Below, piece after piece: positions 13,873 through 31,856 of a stretch of DNA of 64,000 bases. The position numbers and the translations under genes were made by a program. This DNA is from an uncultured Desulfobacterales bacterium. Lineage in GTDB: Bacteria; Desulfobacterota; Dissulfuribacteria; Dissulfuribacterales; JALVPX01. Under the pieces are notes generated by a model, which worked only from the letters and a program-made list of their open reading frames with translations, was not told the DNA's origin and did not search any database. The stretch covers positions 84,011 through 148,010 of the forward strand of contig CAYWKF010000011.1 in NCBI GenBank assembly GCA_964459155.1, read 5' to 3'. Position 1 is the first letter of the stretch. Every line of letters begins with the position of its first letter.

Positions 13873-13875
13873 TGT

Positions 13876-14508: not shown

Positions 14509-14517
14509 TCCTCCGTC

Positions 14518-16364: not shown

Positions 16365-17021
16365 ATGGCACCTTCTGGAAGAACCATTGCAATAGGTGAC
16401 ATACATGGTTGTAATGAAAAGTTGGAAGTGCTTTTGAAACGGCTGTCTATAGAAAAAGATGATACCTTGATCTTTTTGGGTGATTACATAGGCCGCGGCC
16501 CTAGTTCGAAAAGGGTTATTTCCGACATAATAGAATTGAAAAAAAGCCATAAAAACGTGATCTGTCTCCTTGGCAATCATGAAAACCTCCTGCTGGAATA
16601 TGTTCGTTCTCCAGAAGAGGTCTTGATTCCTTATTTGAGGCAACAGAGCATTGAATCATTCTTGGAGAGCTATGGTGAAAGCGATCTGAGGCACCTTCAC
16701 GATCTTTCATTCATGCCGAGGGAACATGTGGAATTTTTGAAATCGCTTCAACTCTATTACACAGAGGGTGATTACTTTTTTGTACATGCAGGTCTTATGC
16801 CCGGCCTTGCCTTTGAAAAGCATACTGCCATGGAGTTTTGCGAGGTGAGGGACGCCTTTTTGGAGTCACCAGTGGAAATAGGTAAGACTGTGGTGTTCGG
16901 CCACACACCCTTTGAGCTGCCCTTTGTGACAAAAGACAAGATCGGCATAGACACAGGTGCGGTATATGGAAATTTATTGACTGCAGTTGCGTTGCCTGAA
17001 ACAAGATTTTACCACGCCTGA
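16365..17021 (+). CDS. PPP-family metallophosphoesterase (Ser/Thr phosphatase / ApaH-like diadenosine tetraphosphatase)
   Basis: IAIGDIHGC, FLGDYIGRGP and LLGNHE motifs. The ORF is open from 16308, and the ATGs at 16347 and 16365 are candidate starts. Confidence 0.8.
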   Translation: MAPSGRTIAIGDIHGCNEKLEVLLKRLSIEKDDTLIFLGDYIGRGPSSKRVISDIIELKKSHKNVICLLGNHENLLLEYVRSPEEVLIPYLRQQSIESFLESYGESDLRHLHDLSFMPREHVEFLKSLQLYYTEGDYFFVHAGLMPGLAFEKHTAMEFCEVRDAFLESPVEIGKTVVFGHTPFELPFVTKDKIGIDTGAVYGNLLTAVALPETRFYHA

Positions 17022-17024: not shown

Positions 17025-19676
17025 CTATTCCTGCTCCACCCTTGCTCTCTTTTTTTCCTTTTCTTTTAGGTACTCGATAAGTTTTTTCAGTTCGTAATCG
17101 CCTTCGTAGAATGCATCTGCAACGAGATAGGGTGTCTCATCGTTGATCATGGCTGCATCAATGAGCCTTGTAAAACCAAGAAGCCTGCCCACTATCACGA
17201 GCTTATCTTCGATAACCTCTGCAGGGGCATATTCGAAAACTGCATTTACCAAATCGGCTTTGACATCTGTGAAAAAATCTGCGCGCTCAAGGATCTCGCC
17301 TATGGCCAACGCCCTTCTGTGCCGCTGTTTCAAGGAGGTGCCACCGCCTTTGAAGCGGAACTTTACATAATTTTCCCTGGGATCAAGGCTGCATACCGAA
17401 TCCACCATTGTAAAATGAAAATCCATGCGGGCGTTCAAGTTGAAATAGTCTCTGGCCAATATGATATAATTGGGCAAGCCAAGGGGCCGTTGGGAACGGG
17501 CATCAGACATCCATCTCCCCACTACCGAGCCCATGTCTCCAATGACCGGCGGTGGTCCTGCCCATCGCAGGCCTGGCGTCGATATACCTTTCCAAAGGGC
17601 CTTAAAAGGCCTGCAAGTGATTTCATCTGGTGTCACAGATCTCTTTTTCTTACGATGGGGCGTCAGCCCTCCACCAACATCGATTATATGTAAAAAGAAG
17701 GGGATGTCGCTTTCCAGCTTGTATACCACCCCTGAAGTTTCCTCCAATAGTTCATCTCCTGCTTCAAAAAAGGCAATTACAGCCTTTTCATGCACGTATC
17801 GTACGATGTCATGGAGGGAACGGCATTCCATGATAGAAAACGTTGGGCCGTAGGCATCAGTAAGGTTCAATTTTATGGTCAACTCCTTGACCTGGTCTAA
17901 GATGGTATTGGTGGGTTGTTCAGCAGGTGGAGAGGTTTCTTTTTCCGCTGTTTTCTGTTTCTCATAATCTTGTATGGCGCTATTTATCTCTTCTTCATCT
18001 GCCAAATAGACCTTGCCTCGTTCACCGTCAATGGTGATCCACTGGCCATCTTCAAGGCGTGCCATGGCATCAACCAAACCTACCAGCATCGGCCTGCCAT
18101 ATTCTCTGGCAACGCAGGACAAATGGTCTGCCGGATTGCCAAAATCTACCAGCAAGCCATTTACGTTTCTTATAACCTTGGCAGCATCAACCAAGCTTCG
18201 GTGCATAACGATTATGACGGGTTCCTTAGGAATTTCCTCGAGATCCTGCCGCCTTTTTATTTTTTTTACCTTGCCTGTAACTATACCCTTGGATGTAATC
18301 AAACCTTGATGAAAGATCGGTTTTCGGTGATCGATCTTTATGGTTTTAGTGCCCGAGTGCGCTTCCATGATGAGCGGCCTTGACTGAAGTATCCAGACTT
18401 CTCCCTGGGGATCCATGGCCCATTCTATATCTTGGGGAGAGTCGAGTACTTTTTCCAACTCCAGGCCAATGGAAACAAGCTTCTGGACCTCTTCGTCAGA
18501 GAGCACCCTGGCATCTTGTCGTTCTGGCGGAATGTCTTCTTCCATGACCCCGCCTTTGGGATTTAATGTAAGCTGTTTCGTCTTTTTGGAGACGATCGGT
18601 GGCTCAATGTACAAATCTCCGCCTAATGTCCTGTATGGCTTATAGATATCTGCCATCGATGCTCCAGAAACAACCAGCTCACCCATGCCGAAAACAGCGC
18701 TGATAAGCATGGTCTGTTCTTCGTTGTCATTTGGATCAACAGTGAAGATGACCCCGGCTTTTTGAGCGTTGATCATTTCAAGGCACAAAACTGCCATGTT
18801 GAAATCGAGGGGTTTCATGCCAGCGCCCATGCGGTAGGCCAGACTCCGTGAATTGAAGTTACTGGCTATCACCTCTTTCACGGCATTTTTCAATTCCTCA
18901 AAAGAGATGACATTCAGTACAGATGTGAATTGGCCTGCAAAAGAGTGGTGCTTGCTGTCCTCACTTAGGGCACTGCTTCTGACCGCTAGCCCCTTGCCTT
19001 GGTCAAAAAATTTTGAAGCCATGTGCATCAGTGTGTTTTCAAGGGCTTCAGGGAGTTGGGCGTTTAAGACCTCGTTTCTGATTTCTTCTTCTGCTTCCTT
19101 GGTCAGCGATTTACCTTGGAACAAAAAGGGCTGTAGCTTTTTTAAGATTTTGAATGAAAGGCCACTTTCCTCCAAAAAGAAACGGCAGCCATGTGTGAGT
19201 ATTGAGAAACCGTCTGGCACATGTATTCTTTCCAGTGAACGCAGGCGTGCCAAATTGCTGGCCTTTCCCCCGGCCAACGTCGCATAATCTGGCAGAATGT
19301 CATCCAAAGATATGCAGAAAGGGATGTCTTTGTGGGTGGGGATGTTTTTCAGAAGTTCATTTATTTTTTTGCTTATATTTTGGTGAATGTTGAAAAGCTT
19401 AGTATGTTTGTCATAGTCCAATTGGTTCAACTTTTCTATCAGGTCTCCTGTTACTTCAATGAGTTCATGAATTTTATTTTGAAGTCCTGGACCGAAAAAT
19501 TGTGCTTCCCTCAACTTTAGATCAATGTCTGTTATGAGTTCGACGGCCTTGGTGTTTTCATACAAAAGGGAACGGAAGATCTGGTATCTCCATTTCAATT
19601 CTTCCAAGTGTTCCCGGGCCTTTTGTTCTCTTAAGCTCTGAACTTTATGGATTTGATTCTTCAGCCATTTGAGCAT
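17025..19676 (-). CDS. PEP-synthase-like dikinase paralogue 3 (PPDK_N ATP-grasp plus phospho-His swivel domain plus uncharacterised C-terminal domain)
   Basis: LAGGKASNLARL, LAVRSSALSEDSKHHSFAGQF, PQDIEWAM..WILQSRPL; His domain VDFGNPADHLSCVAREYGRPMLVG. The C-terminal ~300 aa is shared with the other two paralogues. The ATG at 19676 has AGGTGA 4 nt upstream, overlapping the upstream stop. The ORF is open to 19709. Confidence 0.75.
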   Translation of the reverse strand: MLKWLKNQIHKVQSLREQKAREHLEELKWRYQIFRSLLYENTKAVELITDIDLKLREAQFFGPGLQNKIHELIEVTGDLIEKLNQLDYDKHTKLFNIHQNISKKINELLKNIPTHKDIPFCISLDDILPDYATLAGGKASNLARLRSLERIHVPDGFSILTHGCRFFLEESGLSFKILKKLQPFLFQGKSLTKEAEEEIRNEVLNAQLPEALENTLMHMASKFFDQGKGLAVRSSALSEDSKHHSFAGQFTSVLNVISFEELKNAVKEVIASNFNSRSLAYRMGAGMKPLDFNMAVLCLEMINAQKAGVIFTVDPNDNEEQTMLISAVFGMGELVVSGASMADIYKPYRTLGGDLYIEPPIVSKKTKQLTLNPKGGVMEEDIPPERQDARVLSDEEVQKLVSIGLELEKVLDSPQDIEWAMDPQGEVWILQSRPLIMEAHSGTKTIKIDHRKPIFHQGLITSKGIVTGKVKKIKRRQDLEEIPKEPVIIVMHRSLVDAAKVIRNVNGLLVDFGNPADHLSCVAREYGRPMLVGLVDAMARLEDGQWITIDGERGKVYLADEEEINSAIQDYEKQKTAEKETSPPAEQPTNTILDQVKELTIKLNLTDAYGPTFSIMECRSLHDIVRYVHEKAVIAFFEAGDELLEETSGVVYKLESDIPFFLHIIDVGGGLTPHRKKKRSVTPDEITCRPFKALWKGISTPGLRWAGPPPVIGDMGSVVGRWMSDARSQRPLGLPNYIILARDYFNLNARMDFHFTMVDSVCSLDPRENYVKFRFKGGGTSLKQRHRRALAIGEILERADFFTDVKADLVNAVFEYAPAEVIEDKLVIVGRLLGFTRLIDAAMINDETPYLVADAFYEGDYELKKLIEYLKEKEKKRARVEQE

Positions 19677-19684
19677 CACGTCAC

Positions 19685-22198
19685 CTAAAGCTTGCAAGAT
19701 GAGCCACAAAGATCGACAAACTTGTGGAAAAAACGTTCAACAGCATGTTCATCAGCCATCCTGACATCCAGCTGCCGTGTAAAGGCTATGAGCTCACCTA
19801 TATGTTGAAGTGTTTTGGTGATCTCATACTCTTCTACTCCCTTCAGTTTGCCGATCACTATGTCTTTTTTAGTTTCTGATTTGAATCCAAGGCTTTCGAG
19901 TATCCATTTCAAGAGTTCTGCCCTTTTGCGTCTTTTGGATTCCTCTGCGAACCCACCTGCAAAACGGAAATAAATGTAGTTGTTGTCTGGTTCAGGGCAT
20001 ACATAGGAGTCAATCACGTTAAAGTGATATCCCAGCAAAAGGCTGAGATTCATATAGTCAGTGGCTACAATGGCTAGATTCTGTCCCGAATACTCGGGGG
20101 GGTTTGTCAGCATGCTTACCGGCCTTACCATGCTGGAAAACAGGTCCCCTAACCCGAAGGGTGCTGGTTCAGTGTCCCATGCCTCCTTTCTCAGAAGACC
20201 AGTCAAGAGCGCCTTGAACGGTACGCTCGTTATTTGATCGGGAGTAACACTCCTTGAGTTCTCATCCGCCATTACCCCTGAACCAATGTCTATGATGTTG
20301 ATTTTGATTGGTATAGGCGCCTGAAGCTCCATTACCCGCTCGTCGCCGAATGACCGTACCGATGTGAATTGGTCTATCAGCGACTCCACAGCTTTTACGT
20401 GACTAAAGTGTATGATGTCATGGATCGTTTTGCATTTTTCTGGAACAAAGTCCTTGGACGTTGGGTCTACCAAATAGAGAGGAGCTACATAACTTAAAAT
20501 ACGTCTCAAGATTTTTATCTCGGGTTCTTCCAAATATTCCCAGTCGCGTCTTGCCTCCACTTCCACAAGCTCTTCTATGATACCTTCATACACTCTCTTT
20601 TCATCTGCATCCACAGTAACGTCCATTCCTTCTTTGAGCAGTTTGGTTGCCTTGCCAGTGCCGAAAATGGCAGGCACCCTGTATTCTCTGGCAATAGTTG
20701 CCAAGTGGCCTGTGGAGCTTCCAACATCAGTTATGATCGCTGCTGCCTTTTTAAGTACTCTGCTCAGCTTTGGATGCGCATATCTTGAAACAACAACGGA
20801 ACCCACTGGAACTTTATCCGGATCTTCGTCTGGACTGACATGGACGACCCTGCCCGACGCAATACCCAGTTGGGCAGTTTGACCCACACCTTCCATAAGG
20901 ATTGGAAATTTTTTTAGGATTTCTTCAATGTCAGCACCGACAGGTTCAGGCACCGCCTGGATGCCAAGACGCCTGTTTTGAAGTATCACAAGCTCATCTT
21001 TTTCATTGATCGCCCACTCCAGATCCCTGGGATTTCCAAAGGCCTTTTCGCACAACATGGCTGATTCAGCAATTTTTCTTATGGTCTTGAGGTCAAGGAG
21101 CGACGAGCCCCGCCGCATATGGGTGGTCACCATTTCCAGCGGCTCTTTGCCAGGGGGCAACTTGCATTTTGGAGGCTTATCAGTAATGAGGCTGGAAACC
21201 AGAGTAAATGGATAGGCGCGTTTTACCACATATTGATCGCCAGTGTGGTGTCCAGCTACCAACTTTTCCCCCAGTCCTTCCACAGCCGAGATGACTAGGC
21301 AATCTCTGCTCTTGCCAAGGGGATCTCTCGTATAAGTCACTCCAGATATGTGGGCATTGATCATTTCCTGAACTCCCACAGCTACGGGAGTGGCTAGGAG
21401 GTTGCTTGTGTCTCCGATATAATCTTTCACCTCAGGCATAAATCTCGCCATGATGACCTTTTTGTACGCATCGAAGATCAATTCAGGCTGTACATTCAAT
21501 AAAGTGTGAAACTGGCCTGCAAAACTCCGTTCCGTGTCTTCACCCACAGCGCTGCTTCTAACAGCAAGCAACGTTCGTTTGCCCAAACGCCTGAAGAGGC
21601 TGTCAAGCTCTTGATTTACAGCCTCCTTCAACCTATCGGGTATCGAAGATTCCAAAAATAAGGCTTCTATTTCTTTTTTGGTGTCTTCTGTAGCACCCTT
21701 TTGGGAATACAGTTTTTCAATTCTGGGGATGATGTTGTTCTGCTCCAGGAAAAGGATATAGGCCTGCTTGGTTATTGCGAAACCATCTGGCACCCTGATC
21801 TGAAAATTGTTGAATATGTCTGCAAGGCTGGCGTTTTTGGAACCTACTATATCATCTAGGTCTCTGTTGATTTCTTGATAGGCCAGGGTAAGGCGTTCAC
21901 CGTATGGTCCAGCCCCTCCGGAAACGAGATCTTCGAGGTTAAACCTGATTGCCTCTAAAATATCGTATAGTATCAAATACTTGCCCTGTGAAAGAGCGTT
22001 GAGGTCGTAGATGACCTCCCGGGTGGTTTCACAAACGTTCGTCACAAAGCTTGCAATGAAGGCCCGGTCAAAGAGATAATTTCCTCCCAAAACCTTTTCC
22101 GCATGGGCAATTTCTTCCAGAACTTTGTTGTTGAGTTCAAGAATGTTTCTGAAATATTGGAAAACCCTTTTCAGGGGGCGTGGACTTTTTTTTCTCAT
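19685..22198 (-). CDS. PEP-synthase-like dikinase paralogue 2
   Basis: IVGSKNASLADI, LAVRSSAVGEDTERSFAGQF, PRDLEWAI..LVILQNRRL; His domain ITDVGSSTGHLATIAREYRVPAIFG. The C-terminal domain carries IIDIGSGV, VTPDQITSVPFKAL and NYIYFRFAGG. Confidence 0.75.
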   Translation of the reverse strand: MRKKSPRPLKRVFQYFRNILELNNKVLEEIAHAEKVLGGNYLFDRAFIASFVTNVCETTREVIYDLNALSQGKYLILYDILEAIRFNLEDLVSGGAGPYGERLTLAYQEINRDLDDIVGSKNASLADIFNNFQIRVPDGFAITKQAYILFLEQNNIIPRIEKLYSQKGATEDTKKEIEALFLESSIPDRLKEAVNQELDSLFRRLGKRTLLAVRSSAVGEDTERSFAGQFHTLLNVQPELIFDAYKKVIMARFMPEVKDYIGDTSNLLATPVAVGVQEMINAHISGVTYTRDPLGKSRDCLVISAVEGLGEKLVAGHHTGDQYVVKRAYPFTLVSSLITDKPPKCKLPPGKEPLEMVTTHMRRGSSLLDLKTIRKIAESAMLCEKAFGNPRDLEWAINEKDELVILQNRRLGIQAVPEPVGADIEEILKKFPILMEGVGQTAQLGIASGRVVHVSPDEDPDKVPVGSVVVSRYAHPKLSRVLKKAAAIITDVGSSTGHLATIAREYRVPAIFGTGKATKLLKEGMDVTVDADEKRVYEGIIEELVEVEARRDWEYLEEPEIKILRRILSYVAPLYLVDPTSKDFVPEKCKTIHDIIHFSHVKAVESLIDQFTSVRSFGDERVMELQAPIPIKINIIDIGSGVMADENSRSVTPDQITSVPFKALLTGLLRKEAWDTEPAPFGLGDLFSSMVRPVSMLTNPPEYSGQNLAIVATDYMNLSLLLGYHFNVIDSYVCPEPDNNYIYFRFAGGFAEESKRRKRAELLKWILESLGFKSETKKDIVIGKLKGVEEYEITKTLQHIGELIAFTRQLDVRMADEHAVERFFHKFVDLCGSSCKL

Positions 22199-22356
22199 GG
22201 CCTATGTTCCAAGATATACACTGTTTTTAAACGATTCTCTTTTTCAAACGACTCTCTGCCCATAACTACGTGAGATCCATGGTCACTTGAAAATCTCATG
22301 CATGCATCATGAGTATAACAGAATTTTTCCGGTACGTTTCGAACTTCTTCCCAAAC

Positions 22357-23154
22357 CTATTTTTTACACAAAAGCACCGAGGCTTGAGTTTGAGCCAGTG
22401 TCTCATAGATAAGAGGCATTCGCGGCGAAAAAGAGCTGGCCACAAACGCATAGTTCATAAGAAAGTCGCTCATTGCCTCTGGAGTGCCCAATACATTGTG
22501 AATGTTTGAAATTTTCAAGCCATGCCGGGTAAAGATTTGCTCACCCGTTTCAATAGATGGTTCACTCTGGGTAGAATCTAAGAATTCAAGGTTGTCCACA
22601 TCCTTGAAGTTGTAATAGATGAGGTCGATATCCATCTCAGAGTCTTTTAAAAGTTTACCAAGTGTATGGGCTATGGCGTCTGGCTCAGTACCGTCACCAA
22701 TTAGGATACCAATTGTCCTGGATACAGACAAATTTTTAACATAAAGGATGGAACACGGGCATTTTTCATACAGTTCCGAAGATACAACCTCGGTTAAATT
22801 TTCTGTTTTGGAGATGGGCAAGTGTCCTTCAATAAAAAGGTCATAGTTGCCTTCTCGCAATTCCCGTAATATTTCATTTTCCCTATTTCCTATCCTAATT
22901 TTTGGAGGGCCGCTGAAACCGAATTTGACCTTTTCAGTCTTTAATAGACGAGAAATTGTTGCCTCGCCATCCCTAAGCATCTTTTCTATGGATGCTTGTT
23001 CATCCATATTGCTGCGCGTTAGTTTTTTGCCGTCTGAATAGACTACATGAAGAATAAAGGTATTCAATTCCAAAAAAGAGCTTAGGTAATCTACATATCT
23101 CAAAGCAATACTTGATGCTAAGTTTTCATCCAGGTAGAGTAGCACTTTTGCCAT
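22357..23154 (-). CDS. Tandem universal-stress-protein-like (adenine nucleotide alpha-hydrolase fold) protein
   Basis: Two halves each open with a beta-strand-like KVLLYLDEN.. / TIGILIGDGTEPD.. followed by helical segments. The assignment rests on pattern only; no ATP-binding G-2x-G-9x-G-S/T motif was seen. Confidence 0.35.
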   Translation of the reverse strand: MAKVLLYLDENLASSIALRYVDYLSSFLELNTFILHVVYSDGKKLTRSNMDEQASIEKMLRDGEATISRLLKTEKVKFGFSGPPKIRIGNRENEILRELREGNYDLFIEGHLPISKTENLTEVVSSELYEKCPCSILYVKNLSVSRTIGILIGDGTEPDAIAHTLGKLLKDSEMDIDLIYYNFKDVDNLEFLDSTQSEPSIETGEQIFTRHGLKISNIHNVLGTPEAMSDFLMNYAFVASSFSPRMPLIYETLAQTQASVLLCKK

Positions 23155-23173
23155 TGGATATACTCCTGTTGAA

Positions 23174-23569
23174 CTATTCAGGCGCCTTTTTTCTTTTTAT
23201 GCGTTCTTCAGCTTTTTTTACAATTTCGATGATTTCACTCAGCTTAAACGGCTTTGCCAAAAAGTCGAAAACCCCTTTTTTAAATGATTCTTTGGCGGTT
23301 TCCATGGTAGCGAATCCAGTGATTACAATGACCTCTGTCTCCGGCCAAAGATTTTTGACCTTCTCGAGGAACTCCATGCCAGAGATGCCCTCCATCTTCA
23401 GGTCTGTGATTACTATGTCGAACTTTTGTTCGCGTACCCTTTCCAGGGCCTGGCTGCTCTTGGTGAAGCTCTCTACCTGATAACCTTTTTTTTCAAGGGC
23501 GGGCTGGAGGCGTTTGGCAACTATAGGTTCATCATCTAATATCAATATGGAAATATTTTTTTCACTCAT
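23174..23569 (-). CDS. Stand-alone response-regulator receiver (CheY-like)
   Basis: ILILDDEP, phospho-acceptor context DIVITDLKMEGISGMEFL, VIVITGFAT, and K in LAKPF. The start overlaps the upstream dikinase stop by 8 nt. Confidence 0.9.
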   Translation of the reverse strand: MSEKNISILILDDEPIVAKRLQPALEKKGYQVESFTKSSQALERVREQKFDIVITDLKMEGISGMEFLEKVKNLWPETEVIVITGFATMETAKESFKKGVFDFLAKPFKLSEIIEIVKKAEERIKRKKAPE

Positions 23570-26123
23570 TTTTCATCTCCATCAGCTCATATATTTTGTC
23601 TTTGAAATCATTGATGCGTGTGTCGTTTATCATCATAACATCAAGTTGCCTGGTGAAGCCTATGAGAATGCCTATCAGATACAACCTTTTTTCCATCTCT
23701 GGCCGATTCAATCTTTTTATGCGCGCCACAACCAAGTCTCCCCTGGTTTCGACCATGAAGTCGTAGTAGGCCAACACTTCTTCAATTAGTTTGGCTCGAC
23801 GACTGCGGCGTTCCGCCTCTGTAACCCCGCCAAAGAATCTGAAATAAATATAATTTTCCCTTATTTTTTCAGATAGATAGCTGTCAACTATGGTGAAATG
23901 GTAGCCAAGCCTGAGACTCAGGTTCACATAGTGGCTGCTGATGACGGCCAAGTTTTGCCCCAGGCTTTTTGGGTCCATGTGTTCTGCTGAAAAGGTGCGT
24001 GTGAGACTTGCCATGAAGCTTGATGCATCAATTGAAACAGGTGAGCTGTCCCAGGCTCCAGGGCATTTCAGGCCTCTTATTAAGGCTTTTAAGGGGATCG
24101 ATCTTATCAATTCAGGTGTGACCGTTGCAGAATCAGGAGGGGTAGGTTCCTCAAGGCCTCCGCCTATGTCGATGATTACAAGGTCCAGTGGAATATCCCA
24201 CTTCAACCGTTTTACTGATGCATCTTTTGTGCTTATGCCAGCGAAATGGAGGTTTACCAGGGCCTCAACGGCTTTTTCATGAACAAAGCGAGTGATGTCA
24301 TGAAAGGTTTCGCAGTTTTCCGGCTTGAAGTGTGTGTCCGTTGGATCCACCAGGGTAAGGGGTTCTATCTTCCTCAAGATTCGCCTTAGAAGGCGGTACT
24401 CATAGCTCTCGGTTATCTTTTCCTGTTCAAGATTGAAGAAGAAAAGCTCTTTTACTTCGCCCTGATAGATTTTCCTGTCAGCCGCATCAAGTGTAACAAG
24501 CCCTTTGTCTTGGAGTATCGATATCGCTCCAGACACGTTGAAAAGAGCAGGCAGAGCGTATTCCCTGCAGATGGTGGCGAGATGTCCGGTAACTGCGCCT
24601 ATCTCGGTAACCAGGCCTGAAACTTTGGACATGAGTGGTGCCAACCTTGGTGAGGCATACTTGGTCACCACAATCGCACCCTTTGGAACTTTGTCCAAAT
24701 CATCACCAGGGCCCAACACATGTACTTCGCCTATTCCAACCCCTTCTTGAACAGTTACCCCTCTGTCTTCAATCAAGACCTTATGTTTTTTGCCCAATTC
24801 AGACAATCCTTTTGGATAGAGGCCTGCCCTATATTTTATTCTCAGGGGTCGGGTCTGTAGGATTACGATTCCGCCGTCGGCAATGGCAAATTCAATGTCT
24901 TGGGGTTTCTTGAAATATCTTTCGATGTCCAGCGCGCACTGTGCCAATTGTTTGATCTGGCCCAGACTGAGGCTGGGCTTATCCTTCAATTCTTCGTCGA
25001 CTTCTACTATGTCTAATCTTTTCTGGTCAACCAATTGTCTCTTCTTGTCCTTCCAGGAAATTTGGATAGAGCTTATTTTTTGGGTTTTTCGATCGACATA
25101 AAAGGTGTCCCCTGTGGTACGCCCAGACACTATCAGGCCGCCAATTCCCCAGTTTGAGCTGATGATCATGGTGTCACTGACTGGGTCAGAAGGATTCAGA
25201 CTGTAAATTACACCGCTCACTTTAGAATTTATCAGCTCTTGACAGCCTGCAGCCATTAGTATCTCATCCTCTTTGAAGCCTATTTTTCTTCTGTATTCCA
25301 AGGCACTTGGATTAAAAGTACTGGCTATTACACGTTTATATGCATCAGATATGCCATGTTCATTTACCCCAATTACACTTTCATAGAGACCGGCAAAGGA
25401 GTGTTCGCTGTCTTCTCCATAAGCACTGCTCCTGACTGCCATTAGCGGGTTGGGGCCAATTTGTTTTTTCAATTTGGCCGTTGCATCTTTTATGTCATGT
25501 TTCAAATCAGAAGGGATGTCTGCCTTTAGTATTTCATCTTGAATCATTTGGGCTGCATCTTTAATGGTGAGATCGTTGCTGTCCAACGTCTCGAGTATCC
25601 TGTTTATTTTTTCGTGAAGGTCATTTCTTTGAAGAAAACGCTGGTACGCATAAAACGTAACCGCAAAGCCCCTGGGAATCTGAATACCCAGATTTGACTT
25701 CAATTGGCAAAGGAAGGCATTCTTTCCTCCCACGGAGTCTTCATCCCACTTTTTTATTTCATCATAGAACAAGATATTCTTTGCAACGCCTATATACCGG
25801 CCTTCCAAAATACTTATGATGTCCGACTCAATTTTCTGGTAAGCTTCAATAAGTCCTTCATATTTGCCAGGAACCATTTCATTCAATGTAAAAATCAGTT
25901 TTTGTACGTTGGTGGAAAGTTTATCCACGAAGTCTTCAATGAAGTGTTTGTCAAAAACAAAGTCTCCGCCAAGGATTTGATTTGCTGCCGCTATTTGATC
26001 CAGTATGGTGCTGTTGAGTTGGAGAATTTCCCGGAAAAGCTTGAACAGTTCTTTGAAGGAGCGACCCTTGGCCGAGCCGCTCCAACGTGAAAGGCCTTTT
26101 AATATGTCCTTGATTGTGAACAT
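23562..26123 (-). CDS. PEP-synthase-like dikinase paralogue 1
   Basis: SVGGKNAFLCQL, MAVRSSAYGEDSEHSFAGLY, PQDIEFAI..IVILQTRPL; His domain VTEIGAVTGHLATICREYALPALFN. The C-terminal domain carries IIDIGGGL, VTPELIRSIPLKAL and NYIYFRFFGG. Confidence 0.75.
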   Translation of the reverse strand: MFTIKDILKGLSRWSGSAKGRSFKELFKLFREILQLNSTILDQIAAANQILGGDFVFDKHFIEDFVDKLSTNVQKLIFTLNEMVPGKYEGLIEAYQKIESDIISILEGRYIGVAKNILFYDEIKKWDEDSVGGKNAFLCQLKSNLGIQIPRGFAVTFYAYQRFLQRNDLHEKINRILETLDSNDLTIKDAAQMIQDEILKADIPSDLKHDIKDATAKLKKQIGPNPLMAVRSSAYGEDSEHSFAGLYESVIGVNEHGISDAYKRVIASTFNPSALEYRRKIGFKEDEILMAAGCQELINSKVSGVIYSLNPSDPVSDTMIISSNWGIGGLIVSGRTTGDTFYVDRKTQKISSIQISWKDKKRQLVDQKRLDIVEVDEELKDKPSLSLGQIKQLAQCALDIERYFKKPQDIEFAIADGGIVILQTRPLRIKYRAGLYPKGLSELGKKHKVLIEDRGVTVQEGVGIGEVHVLGPGDDLDKVPKGAIVVTKYASPRLAPLMSKVSGLVTEIGAVTGHLATICREYALPALFNVSGAISILQDKGLVTLDAADRKIYQGEVKELFFFNLEQEKITESYEYRLLRRILRKIEPLTLVDPTDTHFKPENCETFHDITRFVHEKAVEALVNLHFAGISTKDASVKRLKWDIPLDLVIIDIGGGLEEPTPPDSATVTPELIRSIPLKALIRGLKCPGAWDSSPVSIDASSFMASLTRTFSAEHMDPKSLGQNLAVISSHYVNLSLRLGYHFTIVDSYLSEKIRENYIYFRFFGGVTEAERRSRRAKLIEEVLAYYDFMVETRGDLVVARIKRLNRPEMEKRLYLIGILIGFTRQLDVMMINDTRINDFKDKIYELMEMKNE

Positions 26124-26131
26124 AAATTAAA

Positions 26132-26911
26132 TCAGTGGGCGCCTCCTTTGCCTTTAAACAGTATGCCCATCAACAGGCCGGCAAATATCGCAATCACAAC
26201 TGCGCCAATGCCATAAATCAGAGAGTAATCGAAAGCAAGCTTGGAAACCAGGGCAGGGAAACCGACTTGCTTCAAATTCAAATCTTGTTCATCCTTTCCC
26301 ACGATTTTTAGATCCTTAATGGCGAACAATTCAACTTTGTAAGAGCCCTGTTTCATTTTGGGAGGGATTGGAATGATGGCCTTGAATTCACGGAATCCCT
26401 CTTTATCTCCAACGTAATTCAAATTGTTGGGGTAGATTCCATAAGTGCCCGATTCTTCGAGAAGCTTGACAAACTCCTTGAAAATGAACCCCTTGTCTTC
26501 GCCTTCTGGCTCCAATGTCATCATTTTTTCCAAGAACTTGTAGCCCAGATTGAGAGCAGGATCATCTATTTTGTTTTCCATGTCACTGGAGCTAATGACC
26601 AAAAAGACTTCAGGGACATTTCCAATGGTGACGTCTCCAATGTTCATCCAAAGCAACCCTCCGATTTTCCCCTTTTTTTTGAGGTTTATATGGGTGTAAT
26701 GTCCACTCAGTCTTAGAACTGCTTTGCAACCAGCAGGGATCTTTCCTGTAACTTCTACAGTGGTTCCGTTGTAAAAGGTGCCAATTTTTATAAGGTTCGG
26801 CACAAGTTTAAAGGAGATGTCGGATGTTTGCTGCGCATAGGCAGATGATATGATGAAAAGGAATATGAAGGACACTGAAATATATAGCAAGCTATGTTTT
26901 CTAACATCCAT
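26132..26911 (-). CDS. Signal-peptide plus C-terminal-TM protein, TIGR02186/Alph_Pro_TM-like
   Basis: N-terminal MDVRKHSLLYISVSFIFLFIISSAYA and a C-terminal helix LIYGIGAVVIAIFAGLLMGILF. I recall this architecture, and adjacency to a TauE gene, as typical of the TIGR02186 family. This is not verified. Confidence 0.45.
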   Translation of the reverse strand: MDVRKHSLLYISVSFIFLFIISSAYAQQTSDISFKLVPNLIKIGTFYNGTTVEVTGKIPAGCKAVLRLSGHYTHINLKKKGKIGGLLWMNIGDVTIGNVPEVFLVISSSDMENKIDDPALNLGYKFLEKMMTLEPEGEDKGFIFKEFVKLLEESGTYGIYPNNLNYVGDKEGFREFKAIIPIPPKMKQGSYKVELFAIKDLKIVGKDEQDLNLKQVGFPALVSKLAFDYSLIYGIGAVVIAIFAGLLMGILFKGKGGAH

Positions 26912-26912
26912 C

Positions 26913-27842
26913 TTAATGACCTCCTTTCAGGGCAACCATAATTTCTGGAGGCACCAAGAGCCCGTAAAGCATTTTCACGCAGACCAGCAAAACCAGAGAT
27001 GCCAACAGGATTTTTATCTGGTCGCCTTTCAAATGCTTGTTGATGATAGTCCCAATTTGCGCACCGAGTGTGGAGCCAAGCAGCAGGAGCAGGGCGAGTA
27101 CAAAATCAACGGTGTGATTGGAATAGGCCTGCATAATGGTTACATCAACGCATGTAAAAAGGATTTGGAACAAGCTGGTTCCCACCACTACGTGCATAGG
27201 CATTCTCAACATATAGACCATCACCGGCACCATTATGAAACCACCGCCAACTCCCATGATTGCTGCCAATATGCCTACAAATGCACCGAAGATTAGTGGA
27301 AGCAACAGGGAAATCTCAATACCAGATTTTTCAAATCTTGTTTGAAATGGAAGACTCTTCAGCATCTTGGCATATGCCGATTCTTTTTTGGTCTGCTGGG
27401 TGGCAGAAGGCGGCTTGTTTTGACTTCTCAAACCCTTGAGGCTGTCTACGAACATATAGGCGCCCACCCCACCTAGCATGATCACATAGGTTATTTTGAT
27501 CAAAAAATCTGCATTTCCCATGGCGCGCAAAATTTTGATTATTTGCACCCCAAGGGTTCCGCCTACGATGCCTCCAATGAGCAACAGAATACCCATCTTG
27601 AAATCCACATTGCCCAAACGCCAATGTGCCAGAGTTCCTGAGGTGGAAGCGCCTACTATCTGATTTGAGTCTGATGCCGCTGCCACTGTTGGGGGAATCC
27701 CAAACATAATCAACAGGGGCGTCATTAAGAAGCCTCCTCCAACACCAAAGATTCCAGAAAGCAGTCCTACAAACCCTCCTAAACCAAAGATTAGTAGGAT
27801 GTTTACGCTGTTCCCTGCAATGGGAAGATACATGTGAAACAT
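26913..27842 (-). CDS. TauE/SafE-family anion (sulfite/organosulfonate-type) permease
   Basis: 309 aa polytopic protein with repeated GxGGG motifs (GIFGVGGGFLMTPLL and AIMGVGGGFIMVPVM), the hallmark of TauE/SafE (DUF81). Confidence 0.8.
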   Translation of the reverse strand: MFHMYLPIAGNSVNILLIFGLGGFVGLLSGIFGVGGGFLMTPLLIMFGIPPTVAAASDSNQIVGASTSGTLAHWRLGNVDFKMGILLLIGGIVGGTLGVQIIKILRAMGNADFLIKITYVIMLGGVGAYMFVDSLKGLRSQNKPPSATQQTKKESAYAKMLKSLPFQTRFEKSGIEISLLLPLIFGAFVGILAAIMGVGGGFIMVPVMVYMLRMPMHVVVGTSLFQILFTCVDVTIMQAYSNHTVDFVLALLLLLGSTLGAQIGTIINKHLKGDQIKILLASLVLLVCVKMLYGLLVPPEIMVALKGGH

Positions 27843-27930
27843 TGTGCCTGATACCTCCTCGTAAGGTTTCGCTGAAATTGATGCGGCTCATAAAAGCCTT
27901 TGTTAATACCTTTAGGTTCAGACACAAATT

Positions 27931-27946
27931 GCAATGAAGATGCCAA
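27931..27946 (-). promoter_or_regulatory. Sigma-54 (-24/-12) promoter upstream of the TauE-dikinase operon
   Basis: The minus strand reads TGGCAT-CTTCA-TTGCA, against consensus TGGCAC-N5-TTGCW. GG and GC have the canonical spacing. It lies about 90 nt upstream of the ATG at 27842. Confidence 0.65.
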
Positions 27947-28035: not shown

Positions 28036-28138
28036 GTTTCAAAGTGAAAAAATGGAGCTGTTTGGTGCAACCGCTTGAATTAAGACAAGTTTCAAATTGG
28101 ATGTGTTTAAGTGAGAGAGCGCATGTTTCAATTTGAAC
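28036..28138. promoter_or_regulatory. Three copies of a GTTTCAA-containing, partly palindromic motif; candidate enhancer (UAS) sites for the adjacent sigma-54 activator
   Basis: TGTTTCAAAGTGAAA (28036-28049, with inverted repeat TTTCA-N3-TGAAA), AGTTTCAAATTGG (28088-28100) and TGTTTCAATTTGAAC (28124-28138). They lie 90-190 bp upstream of the -24/-12 element. Confidence 0.4.
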
Positions 28139-28140: not shown

Positions 28141-29487
28141 CTATCCCTTTATCTGGAATTTTTTCATGCGCCTCCATAGGGTAGTGCGTGGAATATTCAA
28201 AATTTTACTGGCCAACTTCTTGTTGTAGCCAGTCTCTTTCAATACTTTCAATATGTGGAGCCTTTCCACTTCTTCCAAGGGCAACAATGGCTGGTTCTTC
28301 ATATCCCCGTTTTCCGACTCCATGTGTGAAAGTTCATCTGGCAAATGCTCAACGCCTATCTGTTTGTCATCAGCCAAGGCTATGGCCCTTTGTATGATGT
28401 TTTCAAGCTCTCTAACATTTCCAGGGAAGTCATATTTCATGAGCAGGCTCAGTGCCTCTGGGGTAATATTTTGAACCTCCTTTTTAAAGCGTCTTGAATA
28501 TTTTTTTATGAAATGTGTAATCAGCAGGGGAATATCTTCCTTCCTCTCTGCTAGACGGGGCAGCTCTATATTAACCACATTCAGCCGGTAATACAGGTCC
28601 TCCCTGAATTTTCCAGCCTTTATGGAGGTCTTTAGATCCACATTTGTGGCAGCGATGATGCGAACGTCCAAATCGATGGGCCTTGTACCTCCAACTCTAA
28701 GAATTTGCCTTTCTTGTAACACGTGCAGCAGTTTGACCTGCATGCTCATTGGCATTTCGCCTATTTCATCCAGAAATACGGTGCCGCCGTTTGCTGTTTC
28801 AAAAAGCCCTTTTTTGGTTGAATTAGCACCAGTAAAAGCCCCTTTTTCATACCCGAAGAGTTCGCTGCTTATAAGCTCCTCAGTAAAACTGGCGCAGTTG
28901 AAGTAAACAAAGGGCTTGGAGCGCCTTGGACTGAGTTTGTGGATTGCCTTGGCCACCATCTGTTTTCCAGTGCCTGTTTCAGCTTGAAGTAATACGTTGC
29001 AGTTGACCAGCGATACTTTTTTAATGAGTTTAAATATCTCCTGCATGGCAGGCCCTGCGCCCACAAAGCCATCAATAACGGCACTGGCGGCATTTGTCAT
29101 GCGCAGGGTTTTATTTTCAAATTTGAGCCTGAGGCTCTGTTTTGCCCTGTTTGCTATGAGGCATATGTCATGTTTTTTCAGGGGTTTTGTCAAATAATGG
29201 AAGGCGCCCATTTTGGTGGCTTCGACTGCCGAATCGATACTGGCATATCCAGTAATGATGATGGCCTCACTGTCAGGATTTGTATTTTTTACCCTTTTTA
29301 AAACCTCCAGGCCATCAATATCGGGCAGTTTCAAATCTATGAAAACCAGATGAAAGGTGGTCTCGGCCAATCTATTGAAAAAAAGCGATGCATTAGGGAA
29401 TGTTTCAACTTGAAACCTTTCCTTTTCGAGAAAGCGTTTCATCAAATTTCTTGCTACCTTCTCATCATCGATTACCGCTACTTTCAT
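28141..29487 (-). CDS. Sigma-54-dependent response regulator (NtrC family: receiver plus AAA+ plus Fis-type HTH)
   Basis: Receiver VFIDLKLPDIDG; Walker A ETGTGKQMVA; GAFTGA loop (YEKGAFTGA); GTVFLDEIGEM; C-terminal HTH ASKILNIPRTTLWRRMKK. Confidence 0.92.
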   Translation of the reverse strand: MKVAVIDDEKVARNLMKRFLEKERFQVETFPNASLFFNRLAETTFHLVFIDLKLPDIDGLEVLKRVKNTNPDSEAIIITGYASIDSAVEATKMGAFHYLTKPLKKHDICLIANRAKQSLRLKFENKTLRMTNAASAVIDGFVGAGPAMQEIFKLIKKVSLVNCNVLLQAETGTGKQMVAKAIHKLSPRRSKPFVYFNCASFTEELISSELFGYEKGAFTGANSTKKGLFETANGGTVFLDEIGEMPMSMQVKLLHVLQERQILRVGGTRPIDLDVRIIAATNVDLKTSIKAGKFREDLYYRLNVVNIELPRLAERKEDIPLLITHFIKKYSRRFKKEVQNITPEALSLLMKYDFPGNVRELENIIQRAIALADDKQIGVEHLPDELSHMESENGDMKNQPLLPLEEVERLHILKVLKETGYNKKLASKILNIPRTTLWRRMKKFQIKG

Positions 29488-31763: not shown

Positions 31764-31856
31764 TCGCTTTGGCAGGGAATAAGTTGATATGAAAGGCCGT
31801 TAAGATTATAAAGAAGCTAATTTCCGAATCACGCACGGCCTTTGGGATTACATAAT

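What the first reader, a model, noticed from the sequence alone, without database searches (positions are those of the whole stretch)
17025..27946. Sigma-54-driven operon with three paralogous PEP-synthase-like dikinases that carry an uncharacterised C-terminal domain instead of the PEP/pyruvate TIM barrel
Seen directly: a roughly 10.9 kb minus-strand string runs TauE, TIGR02186-like, dikinase 1, CheY-like receiver, USP-like, a 158-nt gap, dikinase 2, dikinase 3. Short gaps or overlaps point to translational coupling.

All three 837-883 aa proteins share the same layout:
- a ~130-aa helical N-terminus;
- a PPDK_N ATP-grasp domain (..VRSSA.(G/S)ED(S/T)..SFAG.., P(Q/R)D(I/L)E(F/W)A.. and a ..LQ.R(P/R)L segment);
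- a swivel domain with the phospho-His (TGHLATICREY / TGHLATIAREY / ADHLSCVAREY).

The last ~300 aa have no G(S/T)NDL(T/S)Q-type motif of the PEP-utilizer TIM barrel. Instead they share their own conserved blocks: IID(I/V)G(G/S)G(L/V), VTP(E/D).I...P(L/F)KAL, NY(I/V).FRF.GG, and a helical tail.

Established knowledge: the ATP-grasp plus His-swivel cassette is re-used by dikinases that phosphorylate substrates other than pyruvate. Examples are rifampicin phosphotransferase, glucan-water dikinase and phenylphosphate synthase.

Inference: these are dikinases for an unknown substrate or substrates. Triplication and coupling to an anion permease suggest a small anionic or sulfonated metabolite, or a multi-step phosphotransfer. 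I could not assign the system.
Basis: partly seen in the sequence, partly recalled or inferred. Interest (0 to 1): 0.8.

Follow-up and report, generated by a model that had tools for sequence, protein, structure and literature searches.

The report
Permease-coupled dikinases with unknown acceptor domain
Three enzymes annotated as PEP synthase are not PEP synthases: they keep the ATP-driven phospho-histidine machinery but carry a new, unclassified C-terminal domain, and they sit in a widely conserved sigma-54-controlled gene cassette of sulfate-reducing-type bacteria together with a membrane permease pair whose tails end in Gly-Gly-His.

Summary
Three minus-strand genes (853, 837 and 883/894 aa) have PPDK_N plus the swivel-His domain but no PEP-utilizers_C. 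Their last ~290 aa match no Pfam family, PDB sequence or PDB fold (AlphaFold pLDDT 84; not a TIM barrel).

- **Family:** at least 1,493 clusters at 50% identity, nearly all with this architecture, mostly Desulfobacterota.
- **Conserved cassette:** TauE and TIGR02186 lie upstream of DK1 in 67 of 67 testable loci, and a canonical CheY-like receiver lies downstream in 67 of 74. A histidine kinase, an NtrC-type regulator and a footprinted sigma-54 promoter are usually adjacent.
- **Receiver link:** some family members fuse the receiver to the C-terminus.
- **Three old orthogroups:** most DK2 orthologues have lost the ATP-grasp catalytic residues but keep the swivel His.
- **Unexpected tails:** cassette TauE and TIGR02186 proteins end in cytoplasmic Gly-Gly-His-COOH. 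Four alphaproteobacterial pairs without a dikinase do not.
- **Expression:** in Dissulfuribacter thermophilus, published proteomics shows the three core proteins rising together during thiosulfate disproportionation.

The acceptor is unknown. I favour permease-coupled phosphotransfer (0.38) over a free metabolite (0.30).

The parts
29465..30913 (-). Sensor histidine kinase: 2 TM helices, ~129-aa periplasmic region, HAMP, HisKA, HATPase_c
   Evidence: Pfam; hydropathy. An HK lies next to the cassette in most related loci.
28141..29487 (-). NtrC-type sigma-54 activator: REC, Sigma54_activat, AAA lid, HTH_8
   Evidence: Pfam, E 3.1e-71. A close homologue is present in 52 of 76 related loci.
28036..28138 (-). 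Two conserved palindromic TTTCA-N3-TGAAA(C) sites (28137..28125 and 28049..28036); candidate activator-binding sites
   Evidence: Read. Both sites are conserved in L091, L092 and Dissulfuribacter thermophilus L090, in an otherwise 59% identical spacer. Binding was not tested.
27930..27945 (-). Sigma-54 -24/-12 promoter element TGGCATCTTCATTGCA
   Evidence: One mismatch to the consensus. Conserved in relatives. Found in 45 of 62 loci, against a background of 0.106 per kb per strand.
26913..27842 (-). TauE/TSUP-family permease (309 aa) ending in ...KGGH-COOH
   Evidence: Pfam TauE, 176.7 bits. The GGH end is present in 70 of 75 cassette orthologues. Predicted 4+4 TM topology with a cytoplasmic tail.
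26132..26911 (-). TIGR02186/Alph_Pro_TM bitopic protein (259 aa): signal peptide, periplasmic domain, one TM helix, cytoplasmic tail ...KGKGGAH-COOH
   Evidence: Pfam, 130.8 bits. A terminal G-x-H is present in 67 of 74 orthologues and in 102 of 102 homologues. Topology.
23562..26123 (-). DK1 (853 aa): helical N-domain, ATP-grasp, swivel His514, novel C-domain (res ~560-853)
   Evidence: It is 59% identical to the Dissulfuribacter thermophilus 'PEP synthase' P0374.
23174..23569 (-). CheY-like single-domain receiver; overlaps the DK1 stop by 8 nt
   Evidence: Pfam. D12, D13, D56, T84 and K106 are kept in all 68 sequences aligned, the window's and 67 orthologues. Fused to the dikinase in P0148, P0166 and P0177.
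22357..23154 (-). Divergent USP-like protein (265 aa)
   Evidence: No Pfam hit of its own. Its L018 orthologue hits Usp at E 2.1e-8. Present downstream of the receiver in 37 of 70 loci.
22199..22356 (-). 158-nt spacer where close relatives carry a second USP gene (281 aa)
   Evidence: L090, L091 and L092 carry the extra gene. No remnant of it is left in the window. No terminator or promoter consensus was found.
19685..22198 (-). DK2 (837 aa): same layout, ATP-grasp motifs intact here, swivel His
   Evidence: In 12 of 15 other genomes the DK2 orthologue has lost the ATP-grasp catalytic residues but keeps the His and the C-domain.
17025..19709 (-). DK3 (883 aa from ATG 19676, or 894 aa from TTG 19709): different N-terminus, intact ATP-grasp, swivel motif ADHLSC, same C-domain
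16308..17021 (+). ApaH/PrpE/PPP-like metallophosphoesterase, convergent with DK3 (3 nt between the stop codons)
   Evidence: Pfam Metallophos, E 1.8e-17. Below all NCBIfam cut-offs. Adjacent to the 3' end of the DK3 orthologue in 13 of ~15 loci, and co-directional in L057 and L063; also in L092.

Best explanation
The three genes belong to three old orthogroups of an uncharacterised family of PpsA-like, ATP-driven phospho-histidine enzymes. In this family the PEP/pyruvate TIM barrel is replaced by a family-specific ~290-aa domain.

They are part of a conserved cassette controlled by a two-component system and sigma-54.
- Invariant core: a TauE/TSUP permease, its TIGR02186 bitopic partner, DK1 and a CheY-like receiver, usually with USP proteins.
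- Additions here: DK2, DK3 and an ApaH/PPP-like phosphoesterase.

Most likely mechanism:
1. The ATP-grasp domain uses ATP to phosphorylate the swivel His (ATP to AMP). This is shown only as conserved catalytic residues.
2. The swivel domain carries the phosphoryl group to the C-terminal domain. This is inferred from the domain order of PpsA and PPDK.
3. The phosphoryl group is passed to an acceptor that belongs to the permease apparatus rather than to a catabolic metabolite. Candidates are the cytoplasmic Gly-Gly-His-COOH tails of TauE and TIGR02186, and/or the receiver Asp. This step is inferred.

The system would then switch or energise the permease, much as PTS Enzyme I feeds a phosphorelay to a transporter. 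DK2 would be loaded in trans by DK1 or DK3, and the phosphoesterase would reset the system.

The physiological context is sulfur-oxyanion metabolism or stress in anaerobic Desulfobacterota.
For: Architecture and novelty of the C-domain:
- no Pfam or PDB sequence match.
- pLDDT 84.2. Secondary structure is helices plus antiparallel sheets. There are 0 Foldseek PDB hits at E<=1e-3 and all TM-scores are below 0.25.

Catalytic competence:
- GGK, RSSxxED..SFAG, ExxxQxR and the swivel His are kept in DK1, DK2 and DK3.
- The C-domain has invariant or near-invariant residues: C-x3-HD-x5-HE, (I/L)DxGGG, N, H, NYxxFRFxGG and RxxR.

Cassette:
- TauE and TIGR02186 lie upstream in 67 of 67 loci, and the receiver lies downstream in 67 of 74.
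- The receiver is fused C-terminally in P0148, P0166 and P0177.
- The receiver phospho-site residues are kept in all 68 sequences aligned.

Phosphorelay hint: 12 of 15 DK2 orthologues lack the ATP-grasp catalytic residues, while all 15 keep the swivel His and the C-domain motifs.

Tails:
- GGH-COOH in 70 of 75 TauE orthologues, G-x-H-COOH in 67 of 74 TIGR02186 orthologues, and in 102 of 102 homologues.
- Absent from 4 alphaproteobacterial pairs that have no dikinase.
- Predicted to be cytoplasmic.

Other context:
- The phosphoesterase is linked to DK3.
- No metabolic enzyme is conserved in the cassette.

Expression: DITHS69_1988, 1989 and 1990 rise together (log2FC +3.40, +1.79, +1.56) in thiosulfate disproportionation (PMC13490349). 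Sequence and synteny show these are the DK1, TIGR02186 and TauE orthologues.
Against: - No phosphotransfer has been measured.
- Every characterised enzyme with ATP-grasp plus swivel His (PpsA, PPDK, glucan water dikinase, rifampin phosphotransferase, PigC, phenylphosphate synthase) acts on a non-protein substrate.
- The conserved Cys/His/Asp/Asn/Arg set in the C-domain would suit a small-molecule site equally well.
- The receiver could simply be a regulator phosphorylated by the neighbouring histidine kinase. It is 37% identical to the receiver of the sigma-54 regulator.
- The tails could be a docking or metal-binding feature and not phospho-acceptors.
- The no-dikinase comparison rests on only four alphaproteobacterial loci.
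- No complex model could be computed.
Confidence: 0.38

Rival explanations
1. Small-molecule water (or phosphate) dikinases. The C-domain binds a free solute moved by the TauE/TIGR02186 permease and phosphorylates it. Candidates are a sulfur compound or another small anion, or a toxic compound inactivated as in rifampin phosphotransferase. The receiver and USPs only regulate, and the tails at most dock the enzyme to the permease.
For: - All characterised relatives phosphorylate non-protein substrates (established knowledge).
- The closest sequence relatives of the first two domains are PpsA.
- The C-domain carries a conserved polar residue set.
- Linkage to a permease of an anion-transporter family is invariant.
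- The cassette is induced during thiosulfate disproportionation in D. thermophilus and is flanked there by DASS-type anion transporters.
Against: - No conserved gene in the cassette would use or remove a phosphorylated metabolite.
- Three paralogues share identical acceptor-site motifs.
- DK2 orthologues lack a working ATP-grasp.
- The receiver is fused at the C-terminus.
- The terminal His tails are specific to dikinase cassettes.
Confidence: 0.3
2. Output enzyme or unorthodox kinase of the two-component pathway only.
- Either the neighbouring histidine kinase phosphorylates the receiver, which switches DK1 on.
- Or DK1 acts like a hybrid kinase whose swivel phospho-His donates to the receiver Asp.

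In both versions there is no direct chemistry on the permease.
For: - The receiver is translationally coupled to DK1 (8-nt overlap).
- It is conserved downstream in 67 of 74 loci.
- It has canonical phospho-acceptor residues in all 68 sequences aligned.
- It is fused at the C-terminus, the position typical of hybrid kinases, in P0148, P0166 and P0177.
- An HK plus a sigma-54 regulator are nearly always adjacent.
Against: - This does not explain the conserved catalytic-looking C-domain shared by DK2 and DK3, which have no receiver of their own.
- It does not explain the permease tails or the phosphoesterase.
Confidence: 0.15
3. A nucleotide-signalling module. The pyrophosphoryl- or phosphoryl-His intermediate is used to make an unusual nucleotide or polyphosphate signal. 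The USP proteins read it and the ApaH-like enzyme degrades it.
For: - Up to three USP proteins per cassette.
- The phosphoesterase scores best against ApaH-type models, though below their cut-offs.
- USP domains are known nucleotide binders (established knowledge).
Against: - The evidence is purely circumstantial.
- There is no nucleotide-binding signature in the C-domain and no fold match.
- The phosphoesterase is present only where DK3 is.
Confidence: 0.05
4. Ordinary PEP synthases (PpsA) with a divergent C-terminus, acting in gluconeogenesis. This is how databases annotate them and how PMC13490349 reads the D. thermophilus protein.
For: - Database names are 'pyruvate, water dikinase' or 'phosphoenolpyruvate synthase'.
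- The best NCBIfam hits are the PpsA models.
Against: - PpsA model scores are 264-324 bits against cut-offs of 598 and 739.75, and cover only model positions ~5-477.
- No PEP-utilizers_C hit even at E<=10.
- The predicted fold is not a (beta/alpha)8 barrel and matches no PpsA or PPDK chain.
- The genomic context is a permease and signalling cassette.
Confidence: 0.02

Closest known systems
PEP synthase (PpsA, pyruvate, water dikinase, EC 2.7.9.2; PDB 2ols, 9dae, 8a8e)
   Same: The ATP-grasp (PPDK_N) is followed by the swivel phospho-His domain, in the same order. PpsA is the best sequence match for residues ~116-561 (E 2e-57). The catalytic Lys, Arg, Glu, Gln and His are conserved.
   Different: No PEP/pyruvate TIM barrel. 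An extra ~115-130-aa N-terminal helical domain. A novel C-domain. Scores lie far below the family cut-offs.
Rifampin phosphotransferase (RPH; PDB 5hv1, 5fbs) and prodigiosin ligases PigC/RedH
   Same: They reuse the ATP-grasp plus swivel-His cassette with a non-pyruvate acceptor domain. The ATP-grasp is detectably similar.
   Different: In RPH the acceptor-binding domain lies between the ATP-grasp and a C-terminal swivel domain. Here the order is grasp, swivel, acceptor domain. The acceptor domains show no similarity. Model scores are 154-227 bits against a 999-bit cut-off for RPH, and 182-208 bits against 1300 for PigC.
Phenylphosphate synthase (Thauera aromatica PpsABC)
   Same: It is a precedent for the ATP-grasp and the His-carrying or acceptor part lying on different polypeptides, so that the His is loaded in trans. 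This is what DK2 orthologues without a working ATP-grasp would need. This comparison rests on established knowledge and was not tested here.
   Different: It is a catabolic enzyme followed by a carboxylase. Its acceptor domain is a different family. It has no permease, receiver or USP context.
PTS Enzyme I and the PTS phosphorelay
   Same: The same swivel phospho-His domain (weak hits to EI) passes a phosphoryl group to proteins that end at a membrane transporter. This is the functional analogy behind the favoured explanation.
   Different: EI is loaded by PEP through a TIM barrel, not by ATP through an ATP-grasp. There are no HPr or EII homologues here. Transfer to the permease tails is an inference.
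Hybrid histidine kinases
   Same: An ATP-dependent His-phosphorylating module is followed by a C-terminal or adjacent receiver with a canonical Asp.
   Different: There is no HisKA or HATPase_c in the dikinases. His-to-Asp transfer has not been shown.
Sigma-54-controlled TSUP permease and UspA operons of Desulfovibrio vulgaris (DVU0132-0133; DVU3298-3302 under DVU3305)
   Same: These are TSUP/TauE permease operons and membrane-plus-UspA operons driven by NtrC-type response regulators in a sulfate reducer. The DVU3298-3302 group is induced by several stresses (PMC4641369 and PMC3333781).
   Different: Neither paper reports a dikinase in these operons. Homology of those genes to the ones here was not tested.

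Membership tests
PEP synthase / pyruvate, water dikinase (TIGR01418, NF005057) | N-terminal ATP-grasp nucleotide-binding domain (PPDK_N) | tested here: met
   PF01326 E 1.6e-82, 8.6e-63 and 9.2e-77.
PEP synthase / pyruvate, water dikinase (TIGR01418, NF005057) | Central swivel domain with the catalytic His | tested here: met
   PF00391 in all three. The His is conserved (TGH, TGH, ADH).
PEP synthase / pyruvate, water dikinase (TIGR01418, NF005057) | C-terminal PEP/pyruvate-binding TIM barrel (PEP-utilizers_C) | tested here: not met
   No hit at E<=10 for the three C-domains or for 40 family members. The profile finds no PDB sequence. The AlphaFold model is not a barrel and matches no PpsA or PPDK chain.
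PEP synthase / pyruvate, water dikinase (TIGR01418, NF005057) | Whole-protein score above the curated equivalog cut-off | tested here: not met
   NF005057: 324, 264 and 282 bits against a 598-bit cut-off. TIGR01418: 317, 258 and 276 bits against 739.75.
Rifampin phosphotransferase (NF041857) | Domain order ATP-grasp, rifampin-binding domain, C-terminal swivel His; score above the cut-off | tested here: not met
   196, 154 and 227 bits against a 999-bit cut-off. The swivel domain is central, not C-terminal.
PTS Enzyme I (TIGR01417) | HPr-binding N-domain, swivel His and a PEP-binding TIM barrel | tested here: not met
   Only the swivel segment matches, at 22-31 bits against a 341.7-bit cut-off.
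New dikinase family defined here (N-domain, ATP-grasp, swivel His, family-specific C-domain) | C-domain motifs C-x3-HD-x5-HE, (I/L)DxGGG and NYxxFRFxGG..RxxR at the C-terminus of a PPDK_N plus PEP-utilizers protein | tested here: met
   Present in DK1, DK2 and DK3 and in orthologues of all three groups. The profile finds 1,493 representative clusters at E<=1e-3, and the full-length ones are 810-890 aa with the domain at ~545-855.
TauE/TSUP permease (PF01925) | Pfam score above the gathering threshold; 4+4 TM helices | tested here: met
   176.7 bits against 32.6. About 8 hydrophobic segments with a basic central loop. Substrate not testable here.
TIGR02186 / Alph_Pro_TM (PF09608) | Family model score above the cut-off | tested here: inconclusive
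   Pfam 130.8 bits against 24.5, which is met. NCBIfam TIGR02186 54.1 bits against 255.25, which is not met. This is a divergent Desulfobacterota branch with a terminal G-x-H tail that the alphaproteobacterial members lack.
Universal stress protein (PF00582) | Usp domain hit | tested here: inconclusive
   The window 265-aa protein gives no hit. Its L018 orthologue gives 35.2 bits against 24, while four other orthologues give none.
Sigma-54-dependent operon | -24 GG / -12 GC element with correct spacing upstream of the first gene, and an enhancer-binding protein | tested here: met
Sigma-54-dependent operon | Transcription that depends on RpoN and the activator | not testable with these tools
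   Needs RNA-seq or a reporter in rpoN or activator mutants.
ApaH / PrpE / PPP-family phosphoesterases | Metallophos domain with GDxHG..GDxxxRG..GNHE motifs; score above an equivalog cut-off | tested here: inconclusive
   Metallophos E 1.8e-17. Motifs GDIHG, GDYIGRGP and GNHE are visible. The best equivalog is ApaH-type NF001204 at 83.3 bits against 176, and all others are also below their cut-offs.

The most novel reading that the evidence does not exclude
An ATP-driven, PTS-like phosphorelay. A PpsA-type enzyme loads its swivel His from ATP. Through a previously unseen acceptor domain it phosphorylates the C-terminal Gly-Gly-His tails of a TSUP permease and its TIGR02186 partner (and/or a receiver Asp). 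This gates or energises transport of a sulfur-related anion. A paralogue without an ATP-grasp acts as a relay, and a PPP/ApaH-like enzyme acts as the phospho-His eraser.
Probability: 0.15. Interest if true: 0.9.

Novelty: new variant of a known kind. Interest (0 to 1): 0.74.

Why it matters
- **Misannotation.** A widespread protein family is systematically annotated as PEP synthase. It has at least 1,493 clusters at 50% identity and at least 597 matching stretches among 185,579 species-representative genomes. The annotation already distorts omics interpretation: in D. thermophilus the strongly induced protein was read as gluconeogenesis, although it is part of a TauE permease cassette.
- **An unclaimed domain.** The C-terminal domain is a well-conserved unit with no Pfam model and no structural relative. 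It has a candidate active site and is a clean target for structure and function work.
- **A testable system.** The cassette ties together a TSUP permease pair of unknown substrate, a two-component/sigma-54 circuit, USP proteins and ATP-driven phospho-His chemistry, in organisms central to the anaerobic sulfur cycle. The terminal Gly-Gly-His tails, the receiver fusions and the ATP-grasp-dead paralogues give concrete hypotheses. Cultured hosts are available: Dissulfuribacter thermophilus, Desulfonauticus submarinus, Desulfosarcina cetonica and Pseudodesulfovibrio karagichevae.

Tried and rejected
- **PEP-utilizers_C or any other Pfam family in the C-domain.** Nothing at E<=10 for the three window domains. 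No recurrent weak family across 40 members.
- **PDB by sequence profile.** 0 hits at E<=10.
- **Foldseek against PDB with two models** (pLDDT 77.7 and 84.2). 0 hits at E<=1e-3. The recurrent weak hits have TM-scores below 0.25 and are treated as noise: AlaRS C-Ala and RecJ DHHA1 domains, arginine kinase, CphA2.
- **Stand-alone C-domain proteins.** P0102 (318 aa, on a 3.98-Mb contig) looked like one. However, tblastn continues upstream to DK1 residue 382, so it is a 5'-truncated dikinase remnant.
- **Long 'receiver' ORFs in L041 and L049.** These were artefacts of my ORF start extension.
- **Defence system.** No PADLOC hit for the dikinases, permease pair or USP-like protein. The only hit is a weak one for the phosphoesterase.
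- **A second promoter or a terminator in the 158-nt gap.** None found by consensus scans.
- **Remnant of the missing USP gene in that gap.** None found.
- **Literature.** Nothing on TIGR02186. Nothing on this dikinase architecture. The D. vulgaris regulon papers do not mention such enzymes.
- **Supplementary tables of PMC13490349.** Not held.

Full report
**1. What is in the window.**

On the minus strand the ORFs are as follows:
- histidine kinase, 30913..29465
- NtrC-type regulator, 29487..28141
- a 298-nt spacer
- TauE, 27842..26913
- Alph_Pro_TM/TIGR02186, 26911..26132
- DK1, 26123..23562 (853 aa)
- a CheY-like receiver, 23569..23174, overlapping DK1 by 8 nt
- a 265-aa protein, 23154..22357
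- a 158-nt gap
- DK2, 22198..19685 (837 aa)
- DK3, 19709 or 19676..17025 (894 or 883 aa)

Pfam gives PPDK_N and the PEP-utilizers mobile domain in all three dikinases and no PEP-utilizers_C. NCBIfam PpsA models match only their first ~470 positions, at 258-324 bits against cut-offs of 598 and 739.75. PDB sequences (PpsA, rifampin phosphotransferase) cover only residues ~116-561.

**2. The C-terminal domain.**

- The last ~290 aa give no Pfam hit at E<=10, either in the window proteins or individually in 40 family members.
- A profile of the domain finds no PDB sequence.
- AlphaFold2 with 123 sequences gives pLDDT 84.2 and pTM 0.75. The model has two N-terminal helices, a small sheet, then a six-stranded antiparallel region with long helices. 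It is not a (beta/alpha)8 barrel.
- Foldseek against PDB returns nothing at E<=1e-3, and all TM-scores are below 0.25 for both models.
- The domain is strongly conserved. Invariant or near-invariant positions include C-x3-HD-x5-HE, (I/L)DxGGG, an Asn, a His, NYxxFRFxGG and RxxR. These persist in orthologues of all three paralogue groups. That pattern looks like an active or ligand site, but this is inference.
- A profile search of 1.84 billion cluster representatives finds 1,493 proteins at E<=1e-3 (754 at E<=1e-30). The full-length ones are almost all 810-890 aa, with the domain at ~545-855. The domain is therefore essentially confined to this architecture.
- One apparent stand-alone copy is a truncated gene.

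**3. The cassette.**

A scan of one genome per species found at least 597 matching stretches. The best 80 loci are mostly Desulfobacterota, plus Abyssobacteria and a few others. I searched those loci with the window's proteins:
- Of 76 loci with a full DK1 orthologue, 67 of the 67 with enough upstream sequence have TauE and TIGR02186 immediately upstream.
- 67 of 74 have the receiver immediately downstream.
- 37 of 70 have the USP-like gene after the receiver.
- A close homologue of the sigma-54 regulator is in 52 of 76.

Clustering of the remaining ORFs added further members:
- a ~150-aa USP upstream of TauE (29 loci)
- a second ~280-290-aa USP after the first (34 loci)
- a metallophosphoesterase

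The window's 265-aa protein has no Pfam hit itself, but an orthologue hits Usp.

It abuts the 3' end of the DK3 orthologue in 13 of about 15 loci. It is usually convergent and twice co-directional. It is ApaH/PrpE/PPP-like but falls below every equivalog cut-off.

Close relatives (L091, L092) show the window's full order, with one extra USP gene where the window has its 158-nt gap.

**4. Regulation.**

- TGGCATCTTCATTGCA (27945..27930) is one of only two 1-mismatch matches to the sigma-54 consensus in the 64-kb window.
- Aligning the regulator-TauE spacer with those of L091, L092 and Dissulfuribacter thermophilus shows that three elements are conserved in an otherwise 59% identical spacer: this promoter element, two palindromes TTTCA-N3-TGAAA(C), and the ribosome-binding site.
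- Across loci, a -24/-12 element lies within 900 nt upstream of TauE in 45 of 62 cases, against a background of about 0.1 per kb per strand.
- Sigma-54 dependence is thus well supported by sequence, though not shown experimentally.

**5. Three orthogroups and a dead ATP-grasp.**

Each window paralogue has its own orthologues. DK1 and DK2 share the N-terminal domain, while DK3 has a different one.
- DK3 orthologues keep all ATP-grasp motifs.
- In 12 of 15 other genomes the DK2 orthologue has lost the Lys, the RSSxxED..SFAG block and the ExxxQxR block. All 15 keep the swivel His motif GHLATxARE and the C-domain motifs.
- The window's DK2 is of the intact type.

A conserved phospho-His carrier without its own ATP site implies loading in trans. 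Phenylphosphate synthase is a precedent, with separate ATP-grasp and His or acceptor subunits (established knowledge).

**6. Link to the receiver.**

- Some family members carry the receiver fused after the C-domain. P0148 (987 aa) has PPDK_N, swivel, C-domain and then Response_reg at 857-966. P0166 and P0177 are fragments of the same kind.
- The free receivers keep D12, D13, D56, T84 and K106 in all 68 sequences aligned.
- The window receiver is 37% identical to the receiver of the adjacent sigma-54 regulator. It could therefore be served by the same histidine kinase.

**7. Terminal Gly-Gly-His tails.**

- Cassette TauE proteins end in GGH-COOH in 70 of 75 cases.
- Cassette TIGR02186 proteins end in G(A/G/S)H-COOH in 67 of 74 cases.
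- All 102 database homologues of the window's TIGR02186 protein end in G-x-H.
- Three sampled homologues lie in the same cassette: those of Desulfonauticus submarinus and D. thermophilus, and a third on a 7.4-Mb metagenomic contig.
- TauE paralogues outside the cassette end differently.
- Alphaproteobacterial TauE-TIGR02186 pairs with no dikinase nearby (Salipiger, Sphingomonas and Ruegeria, plus the Neorhizobium TIGR02186 protein) lack the tail.
- Topology argues that both tails are cytoplasmic (inference). TIGR02186 has a signal peptide, a periplasmic domain and one TM helix followed by basic residues. TauE has 4+4 TM helices with a basic central loop.

The tails are thus a signature that travels with the dikinase.

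**8. Physiology.**

DK1 is 59% identical over its full length to the 'phosphoenolpyruvate synthase' of Dissulfuribacter thermophilus S69T (P0374). Its locus reads HK, sigma-54 regulator, TauE, TIGR02186, DK1, receiver, USP-like, USP, followed by two DASS-type transporters, a USP and 2-oxoglutarate oxidoreductase.

This order matches locus tags DITHS69_1990 down to 1981 in a 2026 proteomics paper (PMC13490349).
- 1988 ('PEP synthase') rises with log2FC +3.40, 1989 with +1.79 and 1990 (TauE) with +1.56, during thiosulfate disproportionation relative to H2/sulfite cultures.
- 1984 and 1982 fall.
- The authors read 1988 as gluconeogenesis. The sequence and context show it is the cassette enzyme.

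The three core proteins are therefore made, and change together, with sulfur-compound metabolism.

**9. Interpretation.**

Shown:
- The architecture, catalytic residues, conservation, synteny, promoter, tails and fusions.
- Co-expression in one cultured species.

Inferred:
- The phosphoryl flow ATP, swivel His, C-domain acceptor, by analogy with PpsA and PPDK.
- What the acceptor is.

I favour an acceptor that belongs to the permease apparatus or its regulators, namely the terminal His tails and/or the receiver Asp. The reasons are:
- The cassette has no enzyme to use a phosphorylated metabolite.
- All other members are regulatory.
- The receiver can be fused C-terminally, as in hybrid kinases.
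- DK2 behaves like a relay.
- A PPP/ApaH-like eraser accompanies DK3.
- The tails co-vary with the enzyme.

Confidence is 0.38. The main rival is a free small-molecule dikinase, perhaps acting on a sulfur compound (0.30). It is supported by the fact that every characterised ATP-grasp/swivel enzyme acts on non-protein substrates, and by the polar active-site-like residues. Ordinary PpsA is excluded in practice.

**10. Novelty.**

The chemistry module is known. The acceptor domain, the cassette and its features are, as far as the searches reach, undescribed. I file it as a new variant of a known kind. There is a 0.15 chance that it is a PTS-like, ATP-driven relay to a permease, which would be of high interest.

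Noticed in passing
window 22199-22356: The 158-nt gap between the USP-like gene and DK2 sits exactly where close relatives (L090, L091, L092) carry a second ~281-aa USP gene. No remnant of that gene is detectable in the window.
   Followed up: yes
L081 10001-11454; L019 13497-14549; L023 12494-13669: DUF202 (YidH-like) membrane proteins recur next to family members. One lies directly after a 5'-truncated dikinase remnant in L081. In L019 and L023 a DUF202-receiver fusion precedes an extra dikinase copy.
   Followed up: partly
L090 (Dissulfuribacter thermophilus, GCA_001687335.1, MAGO01000002.1) 8129-14634: The protein reported as 'PEP synthase' (DITHS69_1988) and interpreted as gluconeogenesis in PMC13490349 is the cassette dikinase next to TauE and TIGR02186. 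The paper's text gives a different locus tag (DITHS69_1161) from its table.
   Followed up: yes
L090 15141-19839: In D. thermophilus the cassette is followed by two DASS/CitMHS-type anion transporters with TrkA_C and by another USP. The proteomics paper reports one transporter (1984) and the USP (1982) as decreasing when the cassette proteins increase.
   Followed up: no
window 36073-41337 (+): A 1,754-aa ORF with UvrA-type domains (UvrA_inter, UvrA_DNA-bind, several ABC ATPase segments). This is about twice the length of a normal UvrA.
   Followed up: no
window 33281-35992 (+): A 903-aa protein with a long coiled-coil region and a C-terminal OmpA domain.
   Followed up: no
window 13876-15807 (-): A cytochrome b561-type membrane protein plus a multihaem 'Cytochrome_cB' protein, forming a pair just beyond the phosphoesterase gene.
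   Followed up: no
window 31842-32492 (+): A Tll0287-like protein encoded divergently, upstream of the histidine kinase gene. Whether it belongs to the sensing system was not examined.
   Followed up: no
window 28089-28100 (-): A third TTTGAAAC-containing site between the two conserved palindromes. It is present in the window only and is not conserved in L090, L091 or L092.
   Followed up: partly
L072, L074, L078 (upstream of the core cassette): Some genomes carry an additional unit (receiver plus an ~837-aa dikinase closest to DK3) upstream of the HK-TauE-TIGR02186-DK1 core, and two receivers downstream. The module is therefore combinatorial.
   Followed up: no
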